Assembly: GCA_050695915.1 (NCBI GenBank)
Contig: JBOGUK010000171.1
Location: 1 to 35,389 of the forward strand
Reading direction: 5' to 3'
Length of the DNA: 35,389 nucleotides
Source: Anaerolineales bacterium
GTDB lineage: Bacteria > Chloroflexota > Anaerolineae > Anaerolineales > UBA11579
The notes below the pieces were generated by a model that had not been told where the DNA came from, searched no databases, and was given only the letters and a program-made list of their open reading frames with translations. Shown here piece after piece: positions 7,491-30,945 of this stretch. Made by a program: the position numbers and the translations under genes. Numbering within the stretch: position 1 is the first letter of the stretch; every line of letters starts with the position of its first letter.

Positions 7491-7556
7491 AACCCCTTCC
7501 CGCGCCTGGCGGGGCCACCCTTCCCCCTTTAAAGGGAAGGGTAGGGGATGGGGTTT
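7491..7556. repeat. REP/MITE-like palindromic element, copy A
   Basis: Terminal inverted repeats AACCCCTTCCC / GGGATGGGGTT (1 mismatch) flank the 26-nt near-perfect palindrome ACCCTTCCCCCTTTAAAGGGAAGGGT. The reverse complement aligns with 17214-17316. Confidence 0.65.
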
Positions 7557-7574
7557 TTAACGTCCACCACACTC

Positions 7575-8933
7575 ATGCTCATCCACAACGCCAACATCAT
7601 CACATGGGGTTCACAAAATTCTGTCCTTAGCAGCCACGCGGTTTATATTGAGAACGGCCTGATATCCGATCTTGGCCCAGGTTCGCAGATCCTCGCCAAA
7701 TATCCAAGGACTGAAAAGCTGGACGCTGGCGGCCAGTATTTGATGCCCGGCAACATCTGTGCCCATACGCACTTCTACGGCGCCTTCGCCCGCGGGATGG
7801 CGATCCCCGGGCCTGCGCCTAAGGATTTCCCTGAAATCCTCAAACGCCTGTGGTGGCCGTTAGATAAGGCGCTAGATGAGGAAAGCGTGCGGCTCTCCGC
7901 GGTTGTCCATTTCGTCGATGCCATCAAGAACGGTACCACCACTCTGATCGATCACCACGCATCGCCGAATTTCATCGATGGATCGCTCGACGTCATCGGC
8001 GAAGCCGTGGATGAAAGCGGATTGCGAGCTGTGCTCTGCTATGAGGTCACGGACCGCGATGGGGATGCCAAGGCGAAAGCGGGCATTCGCGAGAATGTGC
8101 GCTTTATCGAACGCGTTCGCAAAGTGAAGCCGGCGGATGGCAGGCTGACTGGAGCCTTCGGCTTGCATGCCAGCCTGACACTGTCTGATGAAACGCTTGA
8201 ACAATGCCGCGCTGCGTTGCCAGATGAATCGGGTTTCCACATTCACGTCGCTGAACACGAAGCGGACCAGGAAGATAGTCTGGCGAAAAGCGAATTGCGC
8301 GTGGTTCCGCGGCTGACGAAGCATGGCATCCTGGGTCCGCGCACCATAGCAGCGCACGCCGTCCACGTGGACGCCGCCGAGATTGAAATGCTTGCCGAAA
8401 GCGGAACTTGGGTGACCCACCAGCCGCGCTCGAACATGAACAACGGGGTGGGAGCTGCAGGCATCGAAGCCCTGACCGCGGCAGGCGTGAAGGTCTGCCT
8501 TGGGAACGACGGGTTCACACAAGATATGTGGGCAGAGTGGAAGTCTGCGTACCTGCTGCACAAAGCCTGGAATCGCGACCCGCGCAAGATGAATGGCGCG
8601 GATTTGGCAAAAATTGCTGTTCAACATAACTCCGAGCTGGCTGGACAATTTTTCCCCGGCGCACCGATTGGCAAGATTTCCGTCGGCGCCCGCGCAGATC
8701 TAATCCTTGTCGATTATCACCCGCACACACCGCTGACTTCTGATAATCTTCCGTGGCACATCATTTTTGGGTTCCAGGAACGCATGGTGACCATGACGAT
8801 GGTGGACGGCCGTGTATTGATGCGGGACGGAAAGCTGGAAACGATGGATGAAGAAGAGATCTCGGCTAAAGCGCGTGAGGTGGCTCCAGCCGTTTGGGAG
8901 AGGTACGCAAAATATGTTCAGGAAACAATGTGA
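7575..8933 (+). CDS. ssnA: putative aminohydrolase SsnA (amidohydrolase superfamily)
   Basis: Metal-binding HTHFY is present. Long blocks are collinear with E. coli SsnA as I remember it: LKRLWWPLDKALDEES, TTLIDHHASPNFIDGSL, RSNMNNGVG. The start at 7575 (MLIHNANIITW) matches the SsnA N-terminus; the track ATG at 7548 lies inside repeat copy A. Confidence 0.85.
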   Translation: MLIHNANIITWGSQNSVLSSHAVYIENGLISDLGPGSQILAKYPRTEKLDAGGQYLMPGNICAHTHFYGAFARGMAIPGPAPKDFPEILKRLWWPLDKALDEESVRLSAVVHFVDAIKNGTTTLIDHHASPNFIDGSLDVIGEAVDESGLRAVLCYEVTDRDGDAKAKAGIRENVRFIERVRKVKPADGRLTGAFGLHASLTLSDETLEQCRAALPDESGFHIHVAEHEADQEDSLAKSELRVVPRLTKHGILGPRTIAAHAVHVDAAEIEMLAESGTWVTHQPRSNMNNGVGAAGIEALTAAGVKVCLGNDGFTQDMWAEWKSAYLLHKAWNRDPRKMNGADLAKIAVQHNSELAGQFFPGAPIGKISVGARADLILVDYHPHTPLTSDNLPWHIIFGFQERMVTMTMVDGRVLMRDGKLETMDEEEISAKAREVAPAVWERYAKYVQETM

Positions 8934-10441: not shown

Positions 10442-10484
10442 GACATCCTTTCTGTAGGAGTCGATAAGATTGAAAGGAGACACG

Positions 10485-10883: not shown

Positions 10884-10890
10884 TTAGCTT

Positions 10891-12839: not shown

Positions 12840-12852
12840 ACCCGGCTTTAAT

Positions 12853-12900
12853 TACGCAATACGCAACACGCAATAGGTATTTCGTATCCTGTATTGCGTA
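12853..12900. repeat. inverted arrays of the heptamer TACGCAA
   Basis: TACGCAA TACGCAA CACGCAA (12853-12873), a 6-nt spacer, then TTTCGTA TCCTGTA TTGCGTA (12880-12900). TTACGCAATAC (12852-12862) and GTATTGCGTAA (12891-12901) are perfect complements. Confidence 0.6.
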
Positions 12901-12911
12901 AGGAACTCCTG

Positions 12912-13508
12912 ATGACACTATGGGCCATCGTGCCTGTGAAACCGCTGCGCCGCGGCAAATCCCGTTTGGCGCCCGTCTTATCCGATGAGGATCGCGTCGA
13001 ACTGAACCAGCGCATGCTGCTGCGCACGATCGACACCCTGAAGCAGGTTGACGAACTAGGCGACGTGCTAGTGGTCAGCCGGGATCCGGAAGCGCTTTCG
13101 CTGGCCCGCGAGCACGGCGCCCGCACACTGCAGGAAGATGGTGCGCCGCATTTAAATGTGGCACTGAAGCGCGCTACTGTGGTTGCAAAGAGCTACATGG
13201 CCGAAAGCGTGCTGGTTCTCCCCGCTGACCTGCCGCAGATCAGTACGCAGGACATTCACGCCATGTTGGAAGCTGGCAGCGAACCGCCCGTAGTGGTGAT
13301 CGCTCCGGACCATCACCGGGAAGGCACCAACGCCCTCTTTGTGAATCCAGCGGGACTCATCGAATACGATTTCGGCCCGGGTTCCTTTGCCCGCCATAGC
13401 GAGAATGCGAATAAGGCGGGAGCGAAGTTGGTTGTGTTGGATTTAGCCTCGCTAGCCCGGGATGTGGACGTTCCCGAAGACCTGGGCTTCCTCGAAGTTC
13501 AGAGCTGA
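12912..13508 (+). CDS. cofC: phospholactate/phosphoenolpyruvate guanylyltransferase CofC/FbiD
   Basis: [29 protein letters not shown] matches the CofC N-terminal motif. The ATG at 12912 has AAGGA 7 nt upstream; the track start at 12894 lies inside the heptamer repeat. Confidence 0.85.
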
Positions 13509-13513
13509 TCACA

Positions 13514-13543
13514 CGCCCAATTTGGGCGGCTTTCCAAATTTGG
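13514..13543. promoter_or_regulatory. twin palindromes sharing a CCAA(A/T)TTTGG core, upstream of the LLM gene
   Basis: CGCCCAATTTGGGCG (13514-13528) followed by the perfect palindrome CCAAATTTGG (13534-13543), lying 13-40 nt before the LLM start. Confidence 0.35.
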
Positions 13544-13555
13544 TTTAAGATTAAG

Positions 13556-14557
<1,002 letters not shown>

Positions 14558-14615: not shown

Positions 14616-15095
14616 ATGATGAAAATGGAAAAACTCCCTAACTCGCGCAACTGCTTTGCTTGCGGAATGGAAAACCCCATTGGTTTGAAGCTTGAAATGT
14701 ACGGCGATCCCAAAACAGGCATTGTTACTTGCGATTACACTATCCCCAAGCATTTTGAAGGCTATCCGGGGATTGCGCATGGCGGAATCGTTTCCTCATT
14801 GCTGGACGAGGTGATCAGCCGCGTCTACATGATGGGCGATCACAATCGGTTTATGTACACGGCCAAGCTCACCTCCCGCTTTCGTAAGCACGTTCCCGTC
14901 GAGGTTCCATTGCATATGACCGGCTCGTTCATCAAGGATCGCGGCCGCACAGCTGAGGCCGAGGCCAAGATCTTCACTTCCGATGGTGAGTTGCTGGCCC
15001 AGGGCGAGGCCCTGCTCGTTGCCGCCGAGGAAATAGGTGGGGGCGATTTGGAGGAACTGGGCTGGAAGGTGTATCCTGATAACAGAGTTCCATGA
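14616..15095 (+). CDS. PaaI-family hotdog-fold thioesterase
   Basis: NCFACGMENPIGLKLEMY and GIAHGGIVSSLLDEV are typical PaaI-like thioesterase blocks. I chose the ATG at 14616 because the upstream extension overlaps the LLM gene. The stop overlaps the next start (ATGA). Confidence 0.75.
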   Translation: MMKMEKLPNSRNCFACGMENPIGLKLEMYGDPKTGIVTCDYTIPKHFEGYPGIAHGGIVSSLLDEVISRVYMMGDHNRFMYTAKLTSRFRKHVPVEVPLHMTGSFIKDRGRTAEAEAKIFTSDGELLAQGEALLVAAEEIGGGDLEELGWKVYPDNRVP

Positions 15096-15853
15096 TCACC
15101 GAATATCACCGCCCGTCTACGATCGAGGAAACTCTCAAGCTCCTTCGCCGCAAGCGCCCGCAGACGCGCCCCCTAGGCGGTGGCACGGTGCTTTCGGCGC
15201 CTTCCGCCGAAGCCGTGGCCGCCGTGGACTTGCAGAACCTTGGGCTGAATAAAATCTCCTTGCGAGGCCAAAATCTTCATTTCGGCGCCACCGCGACATT
15301 GCAATCATTACTGGAAACCGAAGGCATCCAGCCAGCACTGGCTGCCGCCATCCGTCACGAAGCCACCTACAATCTGCGCCAGGCAGCTACGGTTGCTGGC
15401 AGCCTGGTCGCCGCTGAGGGTCGCTCGCCCTTCGCAAGTGCCATGTTGGCGTTGGACGCCAAGTTGGAAACGCAGCCCGGCGACGAAAAACTGAGCTATG
15501 GCGAAGTTCTCGCCCTGCGCGCGGACAAGTTGCGCGGTCGGTTGATCACCAAGATCATCATCAGCGCGCAAACAAAACTTAGCTACCAATTCGTTTCGCG
15601 CACTCCCGCTGATCTTCCCATCGTTTGCATTGCGTTTGGCGTCTGGCCCTCCGGCCGAACGCGGCTGGCAGTGGGCGGCTTCGGCGCCGCACCCACACTC
15701 GCCCTCGATGGCCGCGACGACAGCGGGCTATCCGAGGCGCTGGAAAACGCGCTTACTCATGCCAGCGACCAGTGGGCGAGCGCTGAATACCGGCTCGAGG
15801 CCGGCAAGGCGCTGCTGCAGCGCGGCGTCGCTGAGATTGCAGGCAATGCATAA
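15092..15853 (+). CDS. molybdenum hydroxylase FAD-binding (medium) subunit, YgfM/CoxM-like
   Basis: 253 aa with YHRPSTIEETL...PLGGGTVL (AGGTDL-like) and RQAATVAGSL (RNxGTxGGN-like). Its size matches E. coli YgfM. Confidence 0.8.
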   Translation: MITEYHRPSTIEETLKLLRRKRPQTRPLGGGTVLSAPSAEAVAAVDLQNLGLNKISLRGQNLHFGATATLQSLLETEGIQPALAAAIRHEATYNLRQAATVAGSLVAAEGRSPFASAMLALDAKLETQPGDEKLSYGEVLALRADKLRGRLITKIIISAQTKLSYQFVSRTPADLPIVCIAFGVWPSGRTRLAVGGFGAAPTLALDGRDDSGLSEALENALTHASDQWASAEYRLEAGKALLQRGVAEIAGNA

Positions 15854-20300: not shown

Positions 20301-20345
20301 GTCTGGCGGGCGGTGAAGCAAAAAGGCGTCCTAGGCTTGCCATAA
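17331..20345 (+). CDS. fused [2Fe-2S] + molybdopterin-binding subunit of an XDH-family hydroxylase (XdhD-like)
   Basis: 1004 aa. The N-terminus has both 2Fe-2S cysteine clusters (CETGECGACAV; CGYCTPA...CRCTGY). The Moco domain has GGGFGGKQE, FRGYGVPQG and the catalytic Glu in KAVAEIPMDG. Blocks LIDVEYEVL, YTREEEFIA and LVIRTSTQVPFHVRRQ match E. coli XdhD as I recall it. Confidence 0.9.
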   Translation: MKIELSVNGYLRNQEAAPGTSLLNALRSEGYYSAKHGCETGECGACAVLIDGKLLNSCVHLAAQAEGHEIQTLEDVGAHPQLGWKLTEGLHPLQQAFAESGAIQCGYCTPAMILASKQLVDRNPNPSEAEVRETLSGVLCRCTGYVKPVQAVLHAAAVMRGEAAPGDMFTPSELDKFFIPPAADKPGGNGDLVSGDGTAIQVLPKVLIAPQTETWKKVGRPEVKVDAVKLVQGKPAFAADFEKRGLLHAKVLKSPHAHARIKSIDASKARELPGVAAVLTHVDLPRVVYSTAGQSDPIPGPLDMFSLDNKMRFVGDRAAFVAAETPEIAEQALGLIDVEYEVLPAILDSREAMNPGAVQLHDEPEYVNFEESDPTKNLAAHIHIDIGDVEKGFAEADQVFEFEYAVPKVQQVSIEPHVVITYWDEDDRLVIRTSTQVPFHVRRQMAPVLGLPIKRIRVVKPRIGGGFGGKQEVMIEDVAAHLTIATGRPVIYEYTREEEFIAARSRHPMRVRMKTGVKNDGTITANAMYALSDTGAYGCHALTVAGNTGHKAMALYVGDGAYREKPNIQFITDVVYTNTPPSGAFRGYGVPQGFWPVERHMERIARALGLDPIEFRLKNALRQGELQPFSTAWSEGREPSPETIMTNGLEECVRQGRAAIGWDQKFGNVQWKEVPGKLHLRKGIGIAMVMQGTAIPYLDMGGASIKMNDDGSFNLLVGATDLGTGSDTVLAQMAAEVLGTSLDNLIVYSSDTDFTPFDKGAYASSTTYISGAAVVNAAGKVAERIRLRAAKMLNKRGDEPEVDAGEVYLEDSHAIALDGRSVTFSEIGLDSLHHDQQEQIMGVGSYVSPVAPPPFAAQFAEVTVDIETGMVVVDKLVMAVDSGIIVNPLTASGQIEGGMTQALGYAVCEEMVYDEKGRARERDLRDYHIYAAHEMPELETIFVETFEPSHPFGVKAVAEIPMDGVAPAVGNAILDACGADLSENPVTPERVWRAVKQKGVLGLP

Positions 20346-21613: not shown

Positions 21614-22429
21614 ATGCCCGTCTTCTCCCGCCTCGCCGAGCTGCAAGCTAGCGGCGAGGCCGCCGCTCTCTGCACCGTCACCCGCACCAGCGGCTCCGTT
21701 CCCCGGCGTGAGGGCGCCAAAATGCTGGTGTTCCCCGATGGCAGCATCGAGGGCACCATCGGCGGCGGCGAGATGGAAGCCCGCGTCGTCGCCGAGGCGC
21801 TTGCCGGTCTCGCCGACGGTCAGTCGCGCACACTGGAATATTCGCTTGTCGACTCTTCCCGCGGCGACCCGGGCATCTGCGGCGGCACAGTGGAGGTCTT
21901 TGTGGAACCCATTCAACCCCAACCCGCGATCCTGATCATCGGGGCTGGTCACGTCGGGCGCGCGCTGGCCCAGCTTGCCGGTTTCCTCGGCTACCGCGTG
22001 CTGGTCAGCGACGACCGCCCGGAAATGGCAACCCAGGAAAACGTACCGCACGCGCAATCCGTGTATCCAATACCCATTGCCGAAATCCCAAACAAATTGG
22101 ACATCAACTCTCAAACGTACATCGCTCTCACTACGCGCAACGCCCAGATCGATATCGAAGGGCTGCCTGCGCTGCTGGACAGCCCCGCGGCCTACATCGG
22201 AGTGATTGGCTCGAAGAAGCGCTGGGCCGAGGCGCGCCAAAAGATGGAAGCCAAAGGCGTCGACAAAACGAAGCTCGACCGGGTGACCTCGCCAATGGGC
22301 CTCGAACTCAATGCGGAAACCCCCGAAGAGATCGCACTAAGCATTATGGCTCAGATTGTTGCGCTACGAAGAAGGGGGGACGGGACTCACATGGCCAGCG
22401 GAGAATCGTTACCCAGCCACACTGGGTAG
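21614..22429 (+). CDS. xdhC: XdhC/CoxI-family molybdenum hydroxylase maturation factor
   Basis: 271 aa with the N-terminal XdhC_CoxI block (LCTVTRTSGSVPRREGAKMLV...GTIGGGEME) and the C-terminal Rossmann block ILIIGAGHVGRALAQLA. Confidence 0.85.
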   Translation: MPVFSRLAELQASGEAAALCTVTRTSGSVPRREGAKMLVFPDGSIEGTIGGGEMEARVVAEALAGLADGQSRTLEYSLVDSSRGDPGICGGTVEVFVEPIQPQPAILIIGAGHVGRALAQLAGFLGYRVLVSDDRPEMATQENVPHAQSVYPIPIAEIPNKLDINSQTYIALTTRNAQIDIEGLPALLDSPAAYIGVIGSKKRWAEARQKMEAKGVDKTKLDRVTSPMGLELNAETPEEIALSIMAQIVALRRRGDGTHMASGESLPSHTG

Positions 22430-22905: not shown

Positions 22906-24339
22906 ATGTGGAAAAAATATATCACAGCCAGCAATATTGACCAGGTGGTCGAAGCCTTGGCCGAGCATGGCCCCAGCGCACGAATCGTTGCGGGCGCAAC
23001 TGACCTCATCCTGGAAATGGAACTTGGCGTTCGGTTGGGGATCGATACGCTGATCGATATCACGCGGATTTCGGGTTTAACCGAGATTCGCATCGACGAC
23101 GATGACGTTATACACCTTGGTCCCCTCGTAACGCACAACGACTGCGTGGCGTCGCCGCTGCTGCGCAAACGGGCGCTGCCGCTGACGCAGGCTGCCTGGG
23201 AAGTCGGCGCGCCGCAGATCCGCAACCGCAGCACGGTGGCCGGGAACCTGATCACGGCTTCGCCCGCCAACGACACCATCCCACCGCTGATGGCGCTGGG
23301 CACATCAGTAGTGCTGCGCTCGGTGCGCGGAGAGCGTACGGTTCCGCTTGCCAAATTCTATACCGGCCTGCGCAAAATGGTAATGGAGCCCGATGAGATG
23401 CTCACAGATATCCATTTCCCGGCGCTCGATCCCAAGATGGCGCGCGGCGCATTCATGCGCATCACGCTGCGTCGCGCCCAGGCGATCTCGGTGGTCAACG
23501 CAGCCGTTGTTTTGCATTTTGCCGGGGAGAAGGTAAAAGATGCGGCCATCACGCTCGGAGCTGTGGCTCCCGTGATCATCCAAGCAAAGAAACCTGAAGC
23601 TTTCTTGCGCGGCAGGAAACTTACCGAGAAAAATATTGCTCAAGCCGCTGAACTGGCCATGCAGGCCGCAAAACCGATTGACGACGTGCGCAGTTCCGCG
23701 GATTATCGCAGCGAAATGGTGAGGGTTGCCGTCAGCCGCATATTAGGCGAGTTGGCTCAGAAGCAGCAGCCTCAACGGATACCAGCGAAGCCGGTGATGC
23801 TTAGCTCTCTCTCAGTAGGGGCGGGGTCACCCCGTCCCATTTCACAGCAATCGGTCTTCCGCTCCGCGGAGACAGCGATTGAAACTACGATCAATGGAAA
23901 AACCTACTCGTTTTCATCCGGCCATGAAAAAACCTTGCTGCGTTTTTTGCGCGAGGAGGCACTGCTCGTTGGAACAAAAGAAGGCTGCGCCGAAGGCGAA
24001 TGCGGAGCCTGCACCGTGTTCCTGGATGGCAAGGCAGTGATGAGTTGCCTGGTCCCAGCGCCGCGGGCGCATGGCGCCGAAATTGTTACGGTTGAAGGCC
24101 TAATGCAAAATGGAAATCTGCACCCCGTCCAGCAGGCCTTCATTGAGGACGGCGCCGTGCAGTGCGGCTATTGCACGCCGGGCTTCGTGATGTCCGCTGT
24201 CAAGCTGCTGGAAGAAAGGCCAAAGCCGACCCGGGAGGAGGCGAAGCAGGCGGTAGCAGGCAACCTGTGCCGCTGCACCGGATATTACAAGATCCTGGAT
24301 GCCATTCAGCATGCAGGCCAAATGGAGGTGAAAGCATGA
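22906..24339 (+). CDS. fused FAD-binding (CoxM-like) + [2Fe-2S] (CoxS-like) subunit of an XDH-family hydroxylase
   Basis: 477 aa. The N-terminal part has VAGATDLILE and IRNRSTVAGNLITASPANDTIPPLMALG. After an approx. 40-aa linker, the C-terminal part has GCAEGECGACTV, CGYCTPG and CRCTGY. Confidence 0.9.
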   Translation: MWKKYITASNIDQVVEALAEHGPSARIVAGATDLILEMELGVRLGIDTLIDITRISGLTEIRIDDDDVIHLGPLVTHNDCVASPLLRKRALPLTQAAWEVGAPQIRNRSTVAGNLITASPANDTIPPLMALGTSVVLRSVRGERTVPLAKFYTGLRKMVMEPDEMLTDIHFPALDPKMARGAFMRITLRRAQAISVVNAAVVLHFAGEKVKDAAITLGAVAPVIIQAKKPEAFLRGRKLTEKNIAQAAELAMQAAKPIDDVRSSADYRSEMVRVAVSRILGELAQKQQPQRIPAKPVMLSSLSVGAGSPRPISQQSVFRSAETAIETTINGKTYSFSSGHEKTLLRFLREEALLVGTKEGCAEGECGACTVFLDGKAVMSCLVPAPRAHGAEIVTVEGLMQNGNLHPVQQAFIEDGAVQCGYCTPGFVMSAVKLLEERPKPTREEAKQAVAGNLCRCTGYYKILDAIQHAGQMEVKA

Positions 24340-24698
24340 GAGGTCAACGAAGGCAAAGCGGTCCGTTTCCGTGGAAGGTTCACCCGATTTGGCGAGGCAT
24401 CGGCTTGTTCATGGCCATTTTGATCCCGGTGATTGCATACGGTCTGGTGGAGACTATCCTGGAGCGCGCCCAGATTGGAAACAGCGAGCTGGCTCGCACA
24501 CTGCAAAGTCCGAGCCCCTGGGGCCTTGACTTCCCCGTTCTAAGGGTCATTTTGGTCGTGGTTGCCAGCTTTGTTCTCTATCTCGTTTTTTCCATCCTTG
24601 GATCGCTTCTGTATTCGCTCCTCGGTGGACCTCAGAACGAGGAACTCGCCCAGCGCACACCACCGAACATTTTCCGAAGTGGGAGATCGGGCCGGTGA
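24336..24698 (+). CDS. small two-TM membrane protein, no recognised family
   Basis: 120 aa with basic termini and two hydrophobic spans (IGLFMAILIPVIAYGLV; VILVVVASFVLYLVFSILGSLLYSLL). The ATG overlaps the upstream stop (ATGA) and its own stop overlaps the downstream GTG start (GTGA). Confidence 0.6.
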   Translation: MRGQRRQSGPFPWKVHPIWRGIGLFMAILIPVIAYGLVETILERAQIGNSELARTLQSPSPWGLDFPVLRVILVVVASFVLYLVFSILGSLLYSLLGGPQNEELAQRTPPNIFRSGRSGR

Positions 24699-26926
24699 CG
24701 CAAAGCATCGGCGTTTCCATTCCGCGTATTGATGCACGCGCCAAGGTAACGGGAGAAGCGCTTTATCCGGGGGATATCAATAAGCCAAATCAAGCTTACG
24801 CAAAGATTCTATTTGCTCGGAGCCCGCACGCCCGTATTCGGAGCATCGATACCCGCAAGGCTGAAGAACTGGATGGTGTCATCGCCATCTTCACGGCCAA
24901 TGATGTTCCTGTAAACGAGTACGGTTTGATTCTGCACGATCAACCGGTGTTGTGCGGCCCCGGTTCCGACAAACCTCATTCCGACCGTGTCCGTTTTGTT
25001 GGCGACCAGGTGGCTTTCATTGTGGCCGAAAGCGAGCAAGTCGCCGCAAAGGCCCGCGATCTGATCGTGGTCGATTACGAAGATCTTCCAGTGATCACCG
25101 ACCCCTTGAAGGCCCGCCGACCCGGTGCCGAACTCTTGCATCCGGAAACTGGTTCGAACGTATTTTGCCATTATCAAATCCGCCACGGCGACGTAAAGAA
25201 AGGATTCGCCGCCGCGGACGTGATCGTGGAAAGCGAATATCGAACGCCTGCGCAGGAGCATGCCTACTTGGCGCCCGAAGCCGGGCTTGGTTACATCGAT
25301 GAAGAAGGGCGTGTGACGGTGGAGGTGGCCGCGCAGTGGGCGCACGAAGAACGCATGGCCATTGCACATTCGCTCGGCTTACCGGAAGAAAAAGTGCGCG
25401 TGATCCATCCTGCCATTGGGGGCGCGTTTGGCGGGCGCGAAGACATGTCCATCCAGATCGTGCTGGCGTTGGCCGTTTGGCGGCTGGAGCAGCGCGGTAT
25501 CCGCCGCTCGGTGAAGATCATTTGGAGCCGGGCGGAATCGATCATCGGGCATCACAAACGTCACCCGTATATTATTCGCTCGAAATGGGGAGCGACCAAG
25601 GACGGCAAGATCGTCGCCGCGGAATCCGAAGTGATCGCGGATGGCGGCGCTTACGCCTACACCTCGACCAAGGTATTGGGGAACGCCACGCTGATGTGCA
25701 GCGGTCCCTATGTAATCCCCAACGTGAAAGTGGATTCCTATGCGGTGTATACGAACAATATCCCCGGCGGCGCGTTCCGCGGCTTCGGCGGACCGCAGGG
25801 CGCCTTTGCGGCCGAGACGCAGATGAACAAACTTGCCGGGGCGCTCAAGATGGATCCTATCGAGCTGCGCATGCGCAATGTGGCGAAGGACGGCGATCTG
25901 CTGGCAGTGAACACACCGATGCCATTGGGCGTGACGCTGGACAAAGTCATCCCCTCCGCGGCCAAGGCGGCAGGATGGCAAAAAGTAAATTCCAAATGGA
26001 AGCGATCGAAAAGCAAGGCGCGCTGGCCGAATGTTAAACCAAGCTCGAAGGCAATCAAGCGCGGTGTAGGGTTTGCCAGCGGATTTAAGAACGTCGGGTT
26101 TTCCTTTGGTTTTCCGGAACGCTGTTGGGCAACGATTGAATTGCATGGCGGCGCTGAGATTGAGCGCGTGGTGGCGCACCACGCCGGTTCAGACGTAGGG
26201 CAGGGCGCACACACAGTGTTCAAGCAACTGGCAGCAGAAGCAGTTGGCGTTTCCCTCGAGAAGGTGGAACTGGTACTGGCAGATACCGCAACCACCGGCG
26301 ATTCCGGAAGCGCATCTGCTTCGCGCATGACCTTCATGGGGGGCAACGCCATCAGAGGTGCCGCCGAGCTGGCGATGCAAAAATGGAATAACGAGGATCG
26401 CCCGGCGATCGCTGAGTTCAAATACGTTCCTCCAGCCACAACGCCGTATGACCCAAAGACAGGAGAATCCACACCGAACTTTGCTTACGGGTACGTGGCG
26501 GAGGCCGTTGCCGTGGAAGTGGACACGGAGACGGGGCATGTGCACATTTCTGACGTGATCTGCGCAGATGACGTGGGCAAGGCGATCAACCCGCAACAGA
26601 TCGAAGGGCAGATCGAGGGGGCCGTGGTGCAGGCGGCCGGGTACACGGTGCTGGAAAACTTTGTGCAGCTAGATGGGTACGTGAAAACGCAGTTCTTGTC
26701 GAATTACCTCATCCCCACAGTGATGGATGTTCCAGATCGCGTGAAGTCGATAATTCTTGAGTACCCCGATCACGTCGGCCCATGGGGGGTGAGGGGGATG
26801 GCAGAGATGCCGTATATCCCATTTGCCGCCGCGGTGATTGCCGCGGTACACGACGCAACGGGGGTGTGGATCGATGAGTTCCCGCTGATCCCTGAGCGCG
26901 TTCTGCGCGCCCTCGGCAAAATCTAG
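24695..26926 (+). CDS. XDH-family molybdopterin-binding (large) subunit
   Basis: 743 aa with IPRIDARAKVTGEALY at the N-terminus, GGAFGGRED, the xanthine-dehydrogenase-like FRGFGGPQG, and the catalytic Glu in GMAEMPY. Confidence 0.9.
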   Translation: MTQSIGVSIPRIDARAKVTGEALYPGDINKPNQAYAKILFARSPHARIRSIDTRKAEELDGVIAIFTANDVPVNEYGLILHDQPVLCGPGSDKPHSDRVRFVGDQVAFIVAESEQVAAKARDLIVVDYEDLPVITDPLKARRPGAELLHPETGSNVFCHYQIRHGDVKKGFAAADVIVESEYRTPAQEHAYLAPEAGLGYIDEEGRVTVEVAAQWAHEERMAIAHSLGLPEEKVRVIHPAIGGAFGGREDMSIQIVLALAVWRLEQRGIRRSVKIIWSRAESIIGHHKRHPYIIRSKWGATKDGKIVAAESEVIADGGAYAYTSTKVLGNATLMCSGPYVIPNVKVDSYAVYTNNIPGGAFRGFGGPQGAFAAETQMNKLAGALKMDPIELRMRNVAKDGDLLAVNTPMPLGVTLDKVIPSAAKAAGWQKVNSKWKRSKSKARWPNVKPSSKAIKRGVGFASGFKNVGFSFGFPERCWATIELHGGAEIERVVAHHAGSDVGQGAHTVFKQLAAEAVGVSLEKVELVLADTATTGDSGSASASRMTFMGGNAIRGAAELAMQKWNNEDRPAIAEFKYVPPATTPYDPKTGESTPNFAYGYVAEAVAVEVDTETGHVHISDVICADDVGKAINPQQIEGQIEGAVVQAAGYTVLENFVQLDGYVKTQFLSNYLIPTVMDVPDRVKSIILEYPDHVGPWGVRGMAEMPYIPFAAAVIAAVHDATGVWIDEFPLIPERVLRALGKI

Positions 26927-26933
26927 CGGACGA

Positions 26934-27824
26934 ATGTCCCTGCTCAATCTCCTTTATGGAGAGCGCCTGCCGTTGGATGAAGCTGCGCGCCGCGGCATGC
27001 CAGGCGGAACGGCCCGGCTAACAGATGGGGTGACTTATTATGAAATGTCAGGGGGAAAAGGAACTCCAGTTGTTCTAATTCACGGATTTTCCGTTCCCAA
27101 TTTCATCTGGGATCTCAATTTTTCAACGTTGGCCGAGGCCGGATTCCGGGTGGTACGCTACGATGTGTTTGGGCGAGGATATTCGGACCGGCCGAAGATC
27201 AGGAACGACAAAGCCCTCTTTGTCCGGCAGTTGGCTGATTTGTTGGATGCCCTGAAGATCGAACAAGCGGACCTTGTATCGCTTTCCATGGGCGCTGTGG
27301 TGGCTGCGGAATTTGCGTTTCGGTTTCCGAAGAGAGTGCGGAAGCTGGTCTTCATTGACCCAGCCGGTTTCGAACTGGCGCTGCCGTTTGCCTTTAGGCT
27401 GCTATACGTGCCCATGATCGGCGAGATGCTGCTCGGTATCCTGGGGTTGCTGGGCAGCCGCAGCCTGCTGCAAAGCATGCTCAACGATTTTTACGATCCC
27501 ACCGAAGAAGCGCGTAATTATTTTGTGCCGCGGTACCTGGAGCAAATGAAATTCCAGGGTTTCAAACGCTCGCTGCTCTCGACGCTGCGAGCCCGACTGT
27601 TGGAAGAAGACCTGACGCTGTTCAAAGGGCTAGGCGAGTTGCAGAAACCTGTTTTGCTCATCTGGGGCGAAGCCGATCCCACGGTGCCGTTTCGACATCA
27701 CGAAACATTCCTTAAACTGGTTCCACAAACCGAATTCCACGCGATCCAAAGGGCTGGACATATCCCGCACTTCGAAAGGCCGGAGGCGGTGAATCCACTG
27801 CTCGTCGGATTTCTGGCTCGCTAA
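26934..27824 (+). CDS. alpha/beta hydrolase
   Basis: 296 aa with VVLIHGFS, the nucleophile elbow SLSMGA and a C-terminal GHIPHFE histidine. It starts 7 nt after the Moco subunit stop. Confidence 0.8.
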   Translation: MSLLNLLYGERLPLDEAARRGMPGGTARLTDGVTYYEMSGGKGTPVVLIHGFSVPNFIWDLNFSTLAEAGFRVVRYDVFGRGYSDRPKIRNDKALFVRQLADLLDALKIEQADLVSLSMGAVVAAEFAFRFPKRVRKLVFIDPAGFELALPFAFRLLYVPMIGEMLLGILGLLGSRSLLQSMLNDFYDPTEEARNYFVPRYLEQMKFQGFKRSLLSTLRARLLEEDLTLFKGLGELQKPVLLIWGEADPTVPFRHHETFLKLVPQTEFHAIQRAGHIPHFERPEAVNPLLVGFLAR

Positions 27825-27863: not shown

Positions 27864-28673
27864 ATGTCAATTCCTGTGGTGATCCGTGGGGGAGGCGATC
27901 TGGCTTCCGGTGTGGCGCTGCGCCTGCATCGTGCGGGGATTCGTGTGGCGATCCTCGAATTGGAGAAACCATTGGCCGTGAGGCGCACGGTTTCTTTTGC
28001 TGAGGCTGTTTTTTCGGGGAGTGTCGAGATCGAGGGGGTTCGGGGGCGAAAGGCAGCAGATGCCAACCAGGGCGAAGGGTTTGCGAAAGGGGGCCAGATC
28101 CCTGTCCTCGTTGATCCCGATGGGGCACAGCTTGCGGCGTTGAGCCCGACTGCAATCATCGATGCGCGGATGACGAAAAAGCCGCCGGTGAACGCTTTCG
28201 ACGAAAGAGCACTGCTGGTCGGACTGGGGCCTGGATTTGTCGCCGGAGAGAATTGTGAAGCGGTTGTAGAAACCGTCCGCGGACATAGCCTTGGGCGCGT
28301 GTTTTGGGAAGGCAGCGCTCAGCCCGATACCGGGGTCCCCGGAACGATCGCTTCCTACAACCTGGATAGGGTTTTGCGCGCCCCAGCGGACGGAAATGTG
28401 AAAGCGGCGGCCGAAATCGGAGACAAACTTAGGGAAGGACAAATGATTGCAAGGGTCGGCGAAGCCCAACTCAAAGCACCGTTTGACGGCGTGCTGCGCG
28501 GTTTGGTTCATCCTTCGCTGAATGTGCACAAAGGGATGAAGATCGGGGATGTCGATCCGCGCAACGATCCGAGTTACTGCTGGCGTGTTTCTGACAAGGC
28601 CCTGGCCATCGGCGGCGGGGTGTTGGAAGCGCTGCTCATGCGCCTCGAAATCCGTCAGCAGCTTTGGTCATGA
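27864..28673 (+). CDS. yqeB: YqeB-family (short form) selenium-dependent molybdenum hydroxylase system protein
   Basis: 269 aa. VVIRGGGDLASGVALRLHRAGIRVAILELEKPLAVRRTVSFAEAVF matches the family N-terminus as I recall it (EF2563 / C-terminal half of E. coli YqeB). Confidence 0.75.
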   Translation: MSIPVVIRGGGDLASGVALRLHRAGIRVAILELEKPLAVRRTVSFAEAVFSGSVEIEGVRGRKAADANQGEGFAKGGQIPVLVDPDGAQLAALSPTAIIDARMTKKPPVNAFDERALLVGLGPGFVAGENCEAVVETVRGHSLGRVFWEGSAQPDTGVPGTIASYNLDRVLRAPADGNVKAAAEIGDKLREGQMIARVGEAQLKAPFDGVLRGLVHPSLNVHKGMKIGDVDPRNDPSYCWRVSDKALAIGGGVLEALLMRLEIRQQLWS

Positions 28674-29998
28674 TCGAATTGCGCCGCGCCCTGCGCCTGG
28701 AGAATGCTCCGCAAATTGCGTTTGTGGGTGCAGGGGGCAAAACGGCCACGATCTTCACCCTGGTAAGGCAATTTGATAAGCCGGTTCTGGTTACTTCCAG
28801 CACGCATTTCGCGACAGATCAGACGCAGTTTGGTGATCTGCATGTGGCGATCGATGGGGCTGCAGATATCGAAAAGATAAATGTTGATGAGTTGCCGGCT
28901 GTAACGGTATTGACAAGCAGCCGTTTTGAAGATGACCGTGTTGTTGGTTTGAGCATGGAGTCATTGAATGCCCTAAACGATTTCGCCAGGGTTCACGGCT
29001 TGCCGCTGATCATCGAAGCGGATGGGGCCCGCCGGCTGCCGCTGAAAGCGCCTGCCGTGCATGAGCCGGCCATTCCCGGTTTTGTGGAAACCGTGGTTGT
29101 GGTGACTGGACTCTCGGGATTGGGCAAGTCATTGAGCGAAGAATTTGTCCACCGCCCGGAGCGGTTCACGGAACTCAGTGGGTTAAAGCTTGGAGAACCA
29201 ATTACAGCAAACTTGGTTGCGAAGGTATTGCTGCACCCAAACGGCGGCTTGAAAAATGTACCGGCTGGAGCCCGCAAGATTGTGCTGCTCAATCAGGCGG
29301 ACACCCATGAATTAATTTCGGCAGGGCGCGGATTGGCAGAGGACCTGCTATCCGCATTCGACGCCGTATTGATTGCTTCACTTGAGATATCTCCCGACGT
29401 TGTGGCCGTGCACGAACGGGTTGCTGCGATCATTATGGCGGCCGGCGATTCAAAACGACTGGGGAAACCGAAGCAACTATTGGATTGGAAGGGGAAGCCA
29501 TTTGTGCGTGCCGTAGTGGAAACCGCGTTGGCTGCAAAGCTCGATCCCGTGATTGTGGTTACTGGGTCCAACTCCGATCAGGTGGGAGGAACGTTGGATG
29601 GGTTAAGGGTGGAAATTGTGAACAATCCGATTTGGCCGAATGGTCAAAGCACTTCCGTGAAAGCAGGGATAGCCGCTTTGCCGGCAAACGTTGGTGCGGC
29701 GCTCTTTATGGTAGTGGACCAGCCGCAGGTGCCTGTTTCCCTGATCGAGGCCCTGCGGGCTGAGCACTCGGACAGCCTGGTGCCCATCGTGGCGCCGATG
29801 GTGGATGGGCAGCGCAGCAACCCGGTGCTTTTCGACCGCGCAACGTTTGCTGATTTCGCTCAACTTGAAGGGGACGTGGGCGGCCGGGCGATCTTCTCGA
29901 AACACCAGGTGACCTGGCTGCCGTGGCTGGATGCTTCGCTGGCGATTGATGTGGACGTCCCCGAAGATTACGATCGGTTGCTGAGGCGGGCCGGATGA
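28670..29998 (+). CDS. fusion protein: YqeC-like P-loop accessory domain + MocA-type molybdenum cofactor cytidylyltransferase domain
   Basis: The N-terminal half has IAFVGAGGKTATIF...VLVTSSTHF (YqeC pattern). The C-terminal half has AAIIMAAGDSKRLGKPKQLL, NGQSTSVKAG and MVVDQP (MobA/MocA pattern). It is a single uninterrupted ORF. The ATG at 28670 overlaps the yqeB stop (ATGA). Confidence 0.8.
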   Translation: MIELRRALRLENAPQIAFVGAGGKTATIFTLVRQFDKPVLVTSSTHFATDQTQFGDLHVAIDGAADIEKINVDELPAVTVLTSSRFEDDRVVGLSMESLNALNDFARVHGLPLIIEADGARRLPLKAPAVHEPAIPGFVETVVVVTGLSGLGKSLSEEFVHRPERFTELSGLKLGEPITANLVAKVLLHPNGGLKNVPAGARKIVLLNQADTHELISAGRGLAEDLLSAFDAVLIASLEISPDVVAVHERVAAIIMAAGDSKRLGKPKQLLDWKGKPFVRAVVETALAAKLDPVIVVTGSNSDQVGGTLDGLRVEIVNNPIWPNGQSTSVKAGIAALPANVGAALFMVVDQPQVPVSLIEALRAEHSDSLVPIVAPMVDGQRSNPVLFDRATFADFAQLEGDVGGRAIFSKHQVTWLPWLDASLAIDVDVPEDYDRLLRRAG

Positions 29999-30582
29999 AG
30001 GGTTTTGTCCGCGCGTTTGTTGCACTTGAATTGCCCGCAGAAATCCAAAGCAGACTCAATGAAATCATTTCACATCTGAAACGCGACCTGGATGGTTTGC
30101 CGATGAGGTGGGTGAAGCCGGAGAACATTCACTTGACGTTGAAATTTATCGGTGATCTGGCCGAGGAACAAACTCAAGAAGTCAGCCATCTTGTGGAAAC
30201 GGAGGCGAAGGGGCAAAAGCCATTTGAAGTCGCGCTAAGCAAATTGGGCGTCTTTCCGGATGTGCGACGGCCGCGCGTGCTTTGGGTCGGGCTGCATGCG
30301 CCCCATGCGCTGCCGGATTTTCAACAGCGGCTTGAGCAAGGATTAGGCGCGATGGGATATGAGCGGGAACAACGACGCTTCTCGCCGCATCTCACGATGG
30401 CGCGTTTCAAGCGCAGCTTGAATCGGGCTGGATTAGACGCGTTGAGGTCATCACTCGAGAGAACGAACCTTAATCCCTCAGGTGGGATTGTAGATTCAAT
30501 TACATTATTCAAGAGCGAGCTAAAACCTGACGGCCCAGTATATAATCGTCTGGTTCAATTCAAACTCGAGGGACCCACCTAA
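29995..30582 (+). CDS. thpR: RNA 2',3'-cyclic phosphodiesterase (2H phosphoesterase, LigT/ThpR)
   Basis: 195 aa with two HxT motifs (HLTLKFIG and HLTMARF). The start overlaps the upstream stop (ATGA). Confidence 0.85.
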   Translation: MKGFVRAFVALELPAEIQSRLNEIISHLKRDLDGLPMRWVKPENIHLTLKFIGDLAEEQTQEVSHLVETEAKGQKPFEVALSKLGVFPDVRRPRVLWVGLHAPHALPDFQQRLEQGLGAMGYEREQRRFSPHLTMARFKRSLNRAGLDALRSSLERTNLNPSGGIVDSITLFKSELKPDGPVYNRLVQFKLEGPT

Positions 30583-30600
30583 GGAGGCAAACCACCCCGT

Positions 30601-30945
30601 TTGGAACCATTTGAACTAGCGCGCAGTATTGTGGAAGCCCTGGAGGACAAGAAGGGGGAAGACATCTTGCTTCTTGATCTCACAGAGCTCGCCCCGCTCA
30701 GTGACTATTTTGTAATCTGTTCAGGCAGCAGCGAACGTACGCTTAAGGGTCTCGTGGACGCGGTCGTGGAGGAGGCTCACGAGAGTTTCGACCTGAAACC
30801 TAGGCTTGAAGGCAAGCCAAGGGAAGGCTGGTTGCTCGCTGATTTTGGGAGTGTTGTGGTTCACGTGTTTTCGAACGCACAACGTGCGTATTACCAGCTT
30901 GAAGAGTTATGGTCGGATGCGAAGGTGTTACTGCACGTGCAGTAA
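30601..30945 (+). CDS. rsfS: ribosome silencing factor RsfS (iojap-like)
   Basis: 114 aa with EDKKGEDILLLDLTELAPLSDYFVICSGSSERTLKGL, typical of RsfS. It has a TTG start with GGAGG upstream. Confidence 0.85.
   Translation: MEPFELARSIVEALEDKKGEDILLLDLTELAPLSDYFVICSGSSERTLKGLVDAVVEEAHESFDLKPRLEGKPREGWLLADFGSVVVHVFSNAQRAYYQLEELWSDAKVLLHVQ

What the first reader, a model, noticed from the sequence alone, without database searches (positions are those of the whole stretch)
28670..29998. YqeC-MocA Rosetta-stone fusion
One uninterrupted 443-444 aa ORF joins a YqeC-type P-loop domain (VGAGGKTATIF...TSSTHF) to a MocA-type CTP:molybdopterin cytidylyltransferase domain (AAGDSKRLGKPKQLL...QSTSVKAG...DQP). 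The junction lies near 29390-29420. In E. coli, yqeC and mocA are adjacent but separate genes. The fusion physically ties the uncharacterised YqeC step to MCD cofactor synthesis, which predicts that YqeC acts on or next to the cytidylylated cofactor. It also implies that both hydroxylases use MCD.
Basis: partly seen in the sequence, partly recalled or inferred. Interest (0 to 1): 0.65.

Follow-up and report, generated by a model that had tools for sequence, protein, structure and literature searches.

The report
YqeC–MocA fusion maturation protein
This is a genuine single gene that joins a YqeC-type P-loop protein to a MocA-like nucleotidyltransferase, next to yqeB and two xanthine-dehydrogenase-type enzymes; the same fusion is standard in Anaerolineae bacteria and was already reported in 2008, so it is an ordinary member of a known kind.

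Summary
ORF 28670-29998 (+), 442 aa, has an N-terminal YqeC domain (TIGR03172, 168 bits against a cutoff of 73). Its C-terminal domain is a MobA-like NTP transferase whose best family is MocA. A 13-aa linker at 29384-29422 joins them, with no stop or frameshift. The fusion is not an artefact: 80 of 80 related species genomes and all 150 best 50%-identity cluster representatives carry both domains in one ORF. AlphaFold2 gives one compact model (pLDDT 94, pTM 0.92).

The gene overlaps yqeB upstream by ATGA and lies downstream of XdhC and two Mo hydroxylases.

Zhang et al. 2008 listed a YqeC(HP2)-MobA-related fusion in Moorella thermoacetica and drew the same functional link. Haft & Self 2008 grouped YqeB, YqeC and YgfJ/MocA as accessory proteins.

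Three caveats apply:
- The C-domain scores below the MocA equivalog cutoff (145 against 186 bits).
- About half of the related genomes carry a second, more canonical MocA gene directly downstream.
- No SelD gene is nearby.

The YqeC half folds as a SIMIBI-class P-loop NTPase, with MeaB/IcmF as the closest structures but only weakly. A specific MobB relationship was not supported.

Verdict: a new member of a known kind, of low interest.

The parts
28670..29998 (+). yqeC-mocA fusion gene, 442 aa (alternative TTG start at 28664 gives 444 aa); stop TGA at 29996-29998
   Evidence: ORF list; homologues all start at the MIxLxxALRL position; boundaries read directly
28670..29383 (+). YqeC domain (aa 1-238), a P-loop NTPase of the SIMIBI class
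   Evidence: TIGR03172 168.3 bits and PF19842 113 bits. 32% identity to E. coli YqeC, E 4e-28. AF2 domain model pLDDT 93.3; best PDB matches are MeaB/IcmF, SRP54/FtsY, MipZ and BioD at TM about 0.4
28727..28744 (+). Walker A motif G20-A-G-G-K24-T25
   Evidence: Read; G20, G22, G23 and K24 invariant in 66 homologues; GxGGK[ST] present in 81/81
29015..29026 (+). Walker B-like E116-A-D118-G119 (ExxG pattern)
   Evidence: E116, D118 and G119 invariant; [LIVF]xE[AS]DG found in 79 of 81
29384..29422 (+). Inter-domain linker, aa 239-251 (EISPDVVAVHERV); no stop or frameshift
   Evidence: Sequence read. Median linker 17 aa in relatives. The AF2 model shows a continuous strand 243-257 through the boundary
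29423..29995 (+). MocA-family (MobA-like) nucleotidyltransferase domain, aa 252-442, 'F-type' subclade
   Evidence: PF12804 118 bits; TIGR03310 144.9 bits, below the 186.45 cutoff. PDB profile hits to Rv0371c 2we9 (E 3e-29) and Sso 3d5n. Foldseek TMt 0.85-0.88 to 2we9/2wee and 0.76 to MobA. 24% identity to E. coli MocA
29435..29482 (+). Nucleotide-binding motif M256-AAGDSKRLGKPKQLL-271 (corresponds to MocA TAAG... and MobA LAGG...)
   Evidence: Alignment with E. coli MocA and MobA; G259, R263 and K268 invariant
29717..29725 (+). D350-Q-P motif (aligns with MocA GDMP and MobA CDTP)
   Evidence: D350 and P352 invariant; alignment
29816..29836 (+). S383-NPVLFD motif that distinguishes fused copies (xNPV) from free paralogues and E. 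coli MocA (GHP)
   Evidence: xNPV in 80/81 fused copies; GHPW in 48/49 free paralogues
27864..28673 (+). yqeB (269 aa), stand-alone; its stop overlaps the fusion's ATG (ATGA at 28670-28673)
   Evidence: TIGR03309 323.8 bits, cutoff 220; overlap read; directly upstream of the fusion in 35/68 relatives with enough upstream sequence
21614..22429 (+). xdhC-family Moco insertion chaperone
   Evidence: PF13478 and PF02625; TIGR02964 130 bits and NF045664 230 bits, both below cutoff
22906..24339 (+). Hydroxylase 2, FAD-binding + [2Fe-2S] subunit
   Evidence: PF00941, PF03450, PF01799 and PF00111
24695..26926 (+). Hydroxylase 2, molybdopterin-binding subunit (PucD-like)
   Evidence: PF01315, PF02738 and PF20256; TIGR03196 594.6 bits
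17331..20345 (+). Hydroxylase 1, fused [2Fe-2S] + molybdopterin-binding subunit (1004 aa)
   Evidence: PF00111, PF01799, PF01315, PF02738 and PF20256. Best NCBIfam hits are TIGR03313 (690 bits) and XdhA (674 bits), both below cutoff
15092..15853 (+). Hydroxylase 1, probable FAD-binding subunit
   Evidence: PF00941 72 bits; TIGR03312 74 bits, below cutoff
26934..27824 (+). Alpha/beta hydrolase between the Mo subunit gene and yqeB; conserved at this place in the closest relatives
   Evidence: PF00561 90.6 bits; present in 13 related loci, always between the Mo subunit and YqeB
29995..30582 (+). thpR/LigT-type RNA 2',3'-cyclic phosphodiesterase; its ATG overlaps the fusion's stop (ATGA at 29995-29998)
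   Evidence: TIGR02258 150 bits, cutoff 65.7; overlap read; downstream of the fusion in 35/80 loci
7548..8933 (+). ssnA (putative selenium-metabolism aminohydrolase), a gene linked to the selenium-dependent hydroxylase trait, 20 kb upstream
   Evidence: NF005540 508.6 bits (cutoff 444); TIGR03314 474.5 bits (cutoff 455.5)

Best explanation
The gene encodes a bifunctional accessory protein for maturing xanthine-dehydrogenase-family molybdenum hydroxylases.

**Shown**
- It is one polypeptide with a YqeC P-loop NTPase domain and a MocA-family nucleotidyltransferase domain.
- Both halves keep their nucleotide-binding motifs under strong purifying selection.
- The gene is translationally coupled to yqeB (ATGA overlap).
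- It lies in one co-directional cluster with XdhC and two Mo hydroxylases.
- The architecture is fixed across Anaerolineae.

**Inferred**
- The C-domain attaches a nucleotide, most likely CMP from CTP, to Mo-molybdopterin to give the MCD cofactor.
- The YqeC domain uses NTP binding or hydrolysis as an adaptor or chaperone. It would pass the dinucleotide cofactor on to YqeB/XdhC, where the terminal Se (or S) ligand is installed before insertion into the apo-hydroxylases.
- In logic this resembles MobB with MobA, or MeaB fused to its mutase in IcmF.

Fusing the two steps would channel a labile cofactor.
For: - Domain assignments.
- Invariant residues: Walker A, ExxG, H46, R90, K126, E132 and H161-R162 in the N-half; G259, R263, K268, D350 and the NPVLFD motif in the C-half, across 66 homologues at 50-80% identity.
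- Single ORF in 80/80 species genomes and 150/150 top cluster representatives.
- The AF2 full-length model has pLDDT 94.3 and pTM 0.92, with a continuous strand through the boundary, so the model predicts a fixed inter-domain arrangement.
- C-domain fold equals MocA-related/MobA structures. N-domain fold is SIMIBI class, with the cofactor-chaperone GTPases MeaB/IcmF on top.
- ATGA coupling to yqeB. YqeB is directly upstream in 35/68 relatives.
- XdhC and two hydroxylases sit upstream; SsnA is in the window.
- Literature: YqeB/YqeC/YgfJ were proposed as SDMH accessory proteins (PMC2276186). The same fusion and YqeB-MobA-related fusions were listed in PMC2432076.
- A C. difficile yqeC deletion has little phenotype while a yqeB deletion does (PMC11448449). 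This fits a facilitating rather than essential role.
Against: - No biochemical data exist for any YqeC.
- The C-domain is below the MocA equivalog cutoff (144.9 against 186.45 bits). It is only 24% identical to E. coli MocA.
- 13/81 fused copies have LAGG, as E. coli MobA does, so CTP specificity is not secured.
- 42 of 68 relatives carry a second, more canonical MocA paralogue directly downstream. That copy could be the real MCD synthase.
- No SelD lies in the window or within 10 kb in any of 80 related loci, so selenium involvement is not shown for this organism.
- About 30 relatives keep the fusion away from yqeB and the hydroxylases.
- The structural similarity of YqeC to chaperone GTPases is weak (TM about 0.43) and has no sequence-profile support.
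Confidence: 0.7

Rival explanations
1. The fused nucleotidyltransferase domain is not the MCD synthase. It is a specialised MocA paralogue ('F-type') with another substrate or nucleotide, or a non-catalytic cofactor-binding module. Canonical MCD synthesis would be done by a separate 'A-type' MocA, encoded next door in many relatives and elsewhere in this genome.
For: - A free paralogue lies directly downstream in 52/80 loci.
- It scores higher on TIGR03310 (164-179 bits against 145 bits) and is closer to E. coli MocA (27% against 22% identity).
- The fused copies invariantly replace GHP with xNPV (80/81).
- 13/81 fused copies have LAGG.
- Triple fusions YqeC + F-type + A-type exist in several clusters. 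This shows the two paralogues coexist rather than substitute for each other.
Against: - The fused domain keeps the nucleotide-binding LAAGxSxRxGxxK motif, the DQP motif and the C-terminal DxDTPEDY motif.
- The window and its closest relatives (L001-L008) have no second copy beside the fusion.
- The xNPV form also occurs in a stand-alone structure-determined homologue (Sso 3d5n).
- MocA is by far the best-scoring family.
Confidence: 0.2
2. The fusion belongs to a selenium-independent pathway. In Anaerolineae, YqeC-MocA would be a general MCD synthesis and delivery module for sulfurated (not selenated) hydroxylases, and the 'selenium cofactor' name is an annotation carry-over.
For: - No SelD lies in the window or within 10 kb of the fusion in 80 loci.
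- About 30 loci place the fusion among housekeeping genes without YqeB.
- The literature notes that YqeB or YqeC homologues occur in organisms lacking SelD, and that only joint SelD/YqeB/YqeC presence marks the trait (PMC2432076; PMC5029168).
Against: - YqeB passes its equivalog cutoff and is translationally coupled to the fusion.
- SsnA passes its cutoff in the same window.
- SelD is usually not adjacent to yqeB/yqeC even in trait-positive organisms: it was nearby in only 5 of 32 (PMC2432076). Its absence nearby is therefore uninformative.
Confidence: 0.25
3. The single ORF is an assembly or sequencing artefact: a lost stop codon or frameshift has joined two adjacent genes.
For: Logan contigs of the source-like cave metagenome do not cover 29404-29580, so the stretch just after the junction lacks independent read-level confirmation.
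Against: - The same architecture is found in 80/80 independent species genomes, in 120/120 best hits and in 150/150 cluster representatives, with a linker of conserved length.
- No stand-alone YqeC occurs in any related locus.
- Contigs agree perfectly on both sides of the gap.
- AF2 packs the two halves as one unit.
Confidence: 0.01

Closest known systems
HP2(YqeC)-COG2068(MobA-related) fusion gene of Moorella thermoacetica (Zhang et al. 2008, BMC Genomics 9:251, Table 1)
   Same: - It combines the same two families in one gene of about the same size (1368 nt against 1329 nt).
- It has the same neighbourhood: yqeB directly upstream, a Mo-binding subunit gene upstream and XdhC nearby.
- The same inference of a functional link was drawn from it.
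   Different: It comes from a different phylum (Firmicutes, not Chloroflexota). Its sequence was not retrieved here, so domain order, identity and common versus independent origin were not tested.
Anaerolineae YqeC/NTP_transf_3 proteins in public databases (NCBI 'selenium cofactor biosynthesis protein YqeC'; JGI 'molybdenum cofactor cytidylyltransferase')
   Same: Full-length homologues at 47-80% identity, with the same architecture, motifs and often the same yqeB / fusion / thpR / rsfS order.
   Different: The window's protein is at most 80% identical to any deposited protein and at most 67% identical to any species-representative genome. It lacks the free MocA paralogue that follows the fusion in about half of the relatives.
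E. coli YqeC (b2876) and MocA (b2877)
   Same: The N-half is 32% identical to YqeC (E 4e-28) and the C-half 24% identical to MocA (E 3e-12). The genes are neighbours and lie beside yqeB.
   Different: - In E. coli they are separate, divergently transcribed genes.
- E. coli YqeB is itself fused to XdhC, whereas here XdhC and YqeB are separate.
- The C-half has xNPV instead of GHP and is below the MocA equivalog cutoff.
MobA/MobB bifunctional proteins (NCBIfam NF011056, NF011059) and IcmF (MeaB fused to its mutase)
   Same: They share the design logic: a small P-loop NTPase fused to the protein that makes or uses a complex cofactor. MeaB/IcmF are the top structural matches for the YqeC half.
   Different: - No detectable sequence homology of YqeC to MobB, ArgK/MeaB or HypB (hhalign probability below 1%).
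- MobB is absent from the top 50 structural matches.
- TM-scores are only about 0.4.
Rv0371c (PDB 2we9/2wee/2yes) and Sulfolobus Q97W15 (3d5n), MocA-related proteins of known structure
   Same: They are the best sequence and structural matches for the C-domain (E 3e-29 and 3e-25; TMt 0.85-0.90). 3d5n shares the GNPVL motif.
   Different: They are stand-alone single-domain proteins with no YqeC partner domain.

Membership tests
YqeC family (TIGR03172 / PF19842) | Profile score above the curated cutoff | tested here: met
   TIGR03172 168.3 bits against 73.05; PF19842 113.2 bits against 27.6
YqeC family (TIGR03172 / PF19842) | N-terminal P-loop (Walker A) and conserved acidic Walker B-like motif | tested here: met
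   GAGGKT at aa 20-25 and IEADG at aa 115-119; invariant in homologues; aligned with E. coli YqeC GAGGKT and IEADG
YqeC family (TIGR03172 / PF19842) | Co-occurrence with YqeB and Mo hydroxylase genes | tested here: met
   YqeB (TIGR03309, 323.8 bits against 220) overlaps the start; XdhC and two XDH-family enzymes lie upstream
Selenium-cofactor (SDMH) trait as defined by SelD + YqeB + YqeC | SelD present in the same genome | not testable with these tools
   No SelD in the 35-kb window or within 10 kb in 80 related loci; the whole genome is not available
MocA, CTP:molybdopterin cytidylyltransferase (TIGR03310 equivalog) | Profile score above the equivalog cutoff | tested here: not met
   144.9 bits against a cutoff of 186.45. 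It is still the best-scoring family, far above the MobA models at 31-35 bits
MocA, CTP:molybdopterin cytidylyltransferase (TIGR03310 equivalog) | MobA-like NTP-transferase fold and domain | tested here: met
   PF12804 118.4 bits; Foldseek TMt 0.85-0.88 to 2we9/2wee and 0.75-0.78 to MobA
MocA, CTP:molybdopterin cytidylyltransferase (TIGR03310 equivalog) | MocA-type rather than MobA-type specificity motifs (TAAG/GLLTS against LAGG/GPLAG). The motif definition is recalled from Neumann et al. 2011; that paper is not held. | tested here: inconclusive
   The window has MAAG and GQSTS, resembling E. coli MocA TAAG and GLLTS. However, 13/81 fused homologues have LAGG, and the source paper could not be read
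MocA, CTP:molybdopterin cytidylyltransferase (TIGR03310 equivalog) | Catalyses MCD formation from Mo-MPT and CTP | not testable with these tools
   Needs an enzyme assay or complementation
MobB (MGD biosynthesis adaptor GTPase) | Detectable homology of the P-loop domain to MobB | tested here: not met
   hhalign probability 0.5% against E. coli MobB; no MobB Pfam hit at E up to 10; MobB not in the Foldseek top 50
G3E family cofactor-chaperone GTPases (MeaB/ArgK, HypB, UreG) | ExxG Walker B, NKxD motif, G3E fold | tested here: inconclusive
   E116-A-D-G119 fits ExxG, and LLNQAD resembles NKxD (61/81). MeaB/IcmF are the top Foldseek hits, but TMq is 0.42-0.43. hhalign probability is 0.2% against E. 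coli ArgK and HypB
Published YqeC-MobA-related fusion (Moorella thermoacetica type) | One gene covering both HP2 and COG2068, next to HP1 | tested here: met
   The window has this layout. The Moorella coordinates 2089404-2090771(F) are given for both families, directly after HP1 at 2088495-2089295. A sequence-level comparison was not done

The most novel reading that the evidence does not exclude
YqeC would be a divergent G3E-like NTPase chaperone. The fused 'F-type' transferase (xNPV) would be functionally distinct from canonical 'A-type' MocA (GHP). Together with the free or triple-fused A-type paralogue and YqeB, they would form a physical assembly line that makes MCD and gates its hand-over for selenium insertion. 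That would give the first mechanistic role for YqeC, unknown since 2008, and define a new MocA subfamily.
Probability: 0.15. Interest if true: 0.55.

Novelty: new member of a known kind. Interest (0 to 1): 0.2.

Why it matters
How selenium-dependent molybdenum hydroxylases acquire their labile Se ligand is the least understood route of biological selenium use, and YqeC has no assigned biochemical function (PMC11448449). A stable, naturally fused YqeC-MocA protein could be a convenient reagent. It may be easier to express than the separate proteins. It fixes the stoichiometry with the nucleotidyltransferase step. It also gives a high-confidence model in which to design Walker A and interface mutants.

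The biological message, that YqeC acts together with the MocA-type step and YqeB/XdhC, was already drawn from the same kind of fusions in 2008. This window therefore adds a lineage (Anaerolineae from a cave metagenome) and some detail (F-type and A-type paralogues, triple fusions, SIMIBI fold), not a new concept.

Tried and rejected
1. **YqeC as a MobB homologue** (which would make this a MobB-MobA analogue): rejected at the homology level. hhalign gave 0.5%, there was no Pfam MobB hit at E up to 10, and MobB was not among the Foldseek top 50.
2. **Sequence-level G3E membership**: not supported. Only motif resemblance and weak structural matches remain.
3. **PDB sequence search with the YqeC profile**: nothing below E 0.5.
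4. **Read-level check of the junction**: only Logan contigs were available, at about 8x depth, and 29404-29580 is uncovered even at 80% likeness. Inconclusive.
5. **SelD search**: none in the window or in 80 loci.
6. **MocA/MobA specificity papers (Neumann 2009 and 2011)**: not held. The motif criterion rests on memory plus direct alignment to the E. coli proteins.
7. **Fusions outside Chloroflexota**: the top 150 cluster representatives and the 80 best genomes are all Chloroflexota where named. One 'Acidobacteriota' label sits on a 4.7-kb contig in the same 90% cluster as a Chloroflexota protein and is probably a binning error. The spread outside the phylum comes from the literature only (Moorella).
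8. **Active-site geometry of the two domains**: not testable, because model coordinates are not exposed.
Full report
**1. Observation**

The window holds one uninterrupted ORF, 28664..29998 on the + strand (444 aa from a TTG). All homologues begin at the ATG at 28670 (MIELRRALRL...), which gives 442 aa, the coordinates the finding states.

Direct reading shows two 4-nt overlaps. The ATG at 28670-28672 overlaps the TGA of the upstream gene (ATGA, 28670-28673). The fusion's TGA at 29996-29998 overlaps the ATG of the downstream gene (ATGA, 29995-29998).

- The N-terminal half matches PF19842 YqeC (113 bits, cutoff 27.6) and TIGR03172 'selenium cofactor biosynthesis protein YqeC' (168.3 bits, cutoff 73.05).
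- The C-terminal half matches PF12804 MobA-like NTP transferase (118.4 bits). Its best NCBIfam family is TIGR03310 MocA/YgfJ at 144.9 bits, below that equivalog's cutoff of 186.45.
- The linker is aa 239-251 (EISPDVVAVHERV), nt 29384-29422, with no stop and no homopolymer run.

**2. Is the fusion real?**

Yes.
- All 120 best hits in the 5.8-billion-protein collection carry both Pfam domains, are about 440 aa long, and range from 80% down to 50% identity.
- A scan of one genome per GTDB species found at least 575 genomes with a relative. In all of the 80 best, separate profiles for the two halves hit the same stop-to-stop ORF, and no stand-alone YqeC was found in those loci.
- An exhaustive HMMER search of 1.84 billion 50%-identity representatives returned 150 of 150 top hits aligned across profile positions of about 2-440, still 432 bits at rank 150.
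- The linker length is conserved (median 17 aa).
- AlphaFold2 on a 66-sequence alignment gives pLDDT 94.3 and pTM 0.92, with a continuous strand (243-257) running through the domain boundary. The model therefore predicts a fixed, compact two-domain body.

The sequence occurs in Logan contigs of cave-metagenome runs. These agree with zero differences over 28400-29403 and 29581-30065 but leave 29404-29580 uncovered, even at 80% likeness. Given the cross-genome conservation, an artefact is effectively excluded.

**3. Context**

Upstream, on the same strand, the cluster reads as follows.

| Coordinates | Gene or product |
|---|---|
| 15092-15853 | FAD subunit |
| 17331-20345 | 1004-aa [2Fe-2S] + molybdopterin subunit (hydroxylase 1) |
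| 21614-22429 | XdhC-family chaperone |
| 22906-24339 | FAD/[2Fe-2S] subunit (hydroxylase 2) |
| 24695-26926 | PucD-like Mo subunit (hydroxylase 2) |
| 26934-27824 | alpha/beta hydrolase |
| 27864-28673 | stand-alone YqeB (TIGR03309, 323.8 bits against 220) |

Downstream lie a ThpR/LigT phosphodiesterase and RsfS. SsnA, another gene tied to the selenium-dependent hydroxylase trait, is at 7548-8933 and passes its cutoffs. No SelD is in the window.

Among the 68 related loci with enough upstream sequence:
- YqeB is directly upstream of the fusion in 35.
- 42 have a second, free MocA-family gene directly downstream.
- 16 have both, and 7 have neither.

LigT and RsfS follow in about 35 of the 80 loci, and SelD is within 10 kb in none. 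About 30 loci place the fusion, usually with the free paralogue, among housekeeping genes. L028 is an example: Lon, acyltransferase, DAG kinase, Ile-tRNA ligase.

**4. The two halves**

*YqeC half.* It is 32% identical to E. coli YqeC (E 4e-28). Invariant residues across homologues include Walker A G20-x-G-G-K24, H46, R90, E116-A-D118-G119, K126, E132, H161-R162 and G193.
- No solved structure is detectable by sequence.
- A domain-only AF2 model (pLDDT 93.3) matches SIMIBI-class P-loop NTPases. MeaB (E 1.6e-4) and IcmF come first, followed by SRP54/SR-alpha, MipZ, dethiobiotin synthetase and FtsY. TM-scores are only about 0.4.
- The E-x-x-G and LLNQAD motifs resemble the ExxG and NKxD motifs of G3E chaperone GTPases. 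Profile comparison with E. coli ArgK, HypB and MobB nevertheless gives below 1% probability.
- I therefore claim only a class-level fold. My working idea that YqeC is a MobB homologue was not supported.

*C half.* It is 24% identical to E. coli MocA. Its best structural and sequence matches are the 'MocA-related' Rv0371c and Sulfolobus Q97W15, followed by GlmU and MobA.
- It keeps LAAG-type (here MAAGDSKRLGKPKQLL), DQP and DVDxPEDY motifs.
- The fused copies form their own subclade. xNPV occurs in 80/81, whereas E. coli MocA and the free paralogues have GHP (48/49 GHPW).
- The two paralogue groups are only about 31% identical to each other.
- 13/81 fused copies have LAGG, as in E. coli MobA.
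- The free paralogue scores higher on the MocA model (164-179 bits).
- Triple fusions (YqeC + F-type + A-type, 628-672 aa) recur in several clusters, on contigs up to 21 kb.

**5. Mechanism**

*Shown:* one polypeptide, both nucleotide-binding sites conserved, translational coupling with yqeB, and placement in a hydroxylase maturation cluster.

*Inferred:* the C-domain adds a nucleotide (most likely CMP) to Mo-MPT. The YqeC domain, as an NTP-dependent adaptor or chaperone, hands the dinucleotide cofactor to YqeB/XdhC for installation of the terminal Se or S ligand and for insertion into the apo-enzyme.

Two observations fit this picture.
- The network of published fusions links the components: YqeB-XdhC in E. 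coli and Haloarcula, YqeB-MobA-related in several Clostridia, and YqeC-MobA-related in Moorella.
- The C. difficile yqeC deletion has a mild phenotype, whereas the yqeB deletion has a clear one.

The main rival is that the fused transferase is a specialised paralogue and the A-type protein is the real MCD synthase. A second rival is that the pathway here is selenium-independent.

**6. Comparison with what is known**

In E. coli, yqeC (-) and mocA (+) are adjacent but divergent separate genes. E. coli YqeB is an XdhC-YqeB fusion.

Haft & Self 2008 proposed YqeB, YqeC and YgfJ (now MocA) as SDMH accessory proteins. A reviewer of that paper had already pointed out that YgfJ is a nucleotidyltransferase consistent with MCD.

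Zhang et al. [quoted passage not shown] They listed the Moorella thermoacetica HP2/COG2068 fusion (2089404-2090771) directly after HP1, and concluded there were functional links.

Later papers still call YqeC's function unknown and do not discuss the fusion. Databases annotate these Anaerolineae proteins automatically as YqeC or as molybdenum cofactor cytidylyltransferase.

**7. Verdict**

The window's gene is a new member, from a cave-metagenome Anaerolineae lineage, of a known and abundant fusion family.
- the size and taxonomic concentration of the family;
- the F-type/A-type paralogue split and the triple fusions;
- a confident model showing a SIMIBI-class fold for YqeC.

Interest is low (0.2). 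The most novel reading still open is a G3E-like chaperone role for YqeC together with a functionally distinct F-type transferase. It has a low probability.

Noticed in passing
L074:7138-7728, L070:6421-7008, L056:1592-2191 and about 50 other related loci (absent from the window): A second, free MocA-family gene ('A-type', GHPW motif, about 200 aa) sits directly downstream of the fusion in 52/80 related genomes, often overlapping it. It is closer to canonical MocA than the fused copy is. The window and its closest relatives (L001-L008) lack it at this position.
   Followed up: partly
P0051 (653 aa), P0121 (670 aa), P0123 (628 aa), P0135 (672 aa): Triple fusions of YqeC + F-type MocA + A-type MocA in one polypeptide. 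They recur in several 50%-identity clusters, on contigs up to 21 kb.
   Followed up: partly
window 29995-30945; 35 of 80 related loci: A ThpR/LigT RNA 2',3'-cyclic phosphodiesterase gene is translationally coupled (ATGA) to the end of the fusion and is followed by rsfS. This yqeB / fusion / thpR / rsfS order is conserved in many Anaerolineae. Whether ThpR has any link to cofactor maturation, or this is just conserved gene order, is unknown.
   Followed up: no
window 9018-14557: A coenzyme F420 gene set (npdG, cofE, FbiB C-terminal nitroreductase-like domain, cofD, cofC) and an LLM-class F420-dependent oxidoreductase lie directly upstream of hydroxylase 1. This hints at an F420-linked redox partner or pathway.
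   Followed up: no
window 7548-8933 and 4112-5494: SsnA (passing NCBIfam cutoffs) lies 20 kb upstream of the fusion. An M20 dipeptidase with a weak YgeY-like hit is nearby. Together with the XdhD/DOPDH-like architecture of hydroxylase 1 ([2Fe-2S] fused to the Mo subunit), this recalls the anaerobic purine / 2,8-dioxopurine gene set.
   Followed up: no
window 15630-17204, overlapping 15092-15853: A 524-aa PLP-dependent decarboxylase ORF (PF00282) overlaps the end of the FAD-subunit ORF by about 220 nt as listed. Its true start is probably further downstream. Its role next to the hydroxylase is unknown.
   Followed up: no
window 26934-27824; 13 related loci: An alpha/beta hydrolase gene is conserved between the Mo-subunit gene and yqeB in the closest relatives. 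It may be the next catabolic enzyme of the pathway served by hydroxylase 2.
   Followed up: no
L017, L031, L052, L057, L068, L072, L077: In some relatives the fused transferase domain carries an insertion of about 25-35 aa in mid-domain, after the GQSxS motif region, which splits the profile hit in two.
   Followed up: no
window 29404-29580: Logan unitigs of two cave-metagenome runs break on both sides of this 177-nt stretch, although flanking contigs match perfectly. Low depth or strain variation at the start of the transferase domain could explain it.
   Followed up: partly
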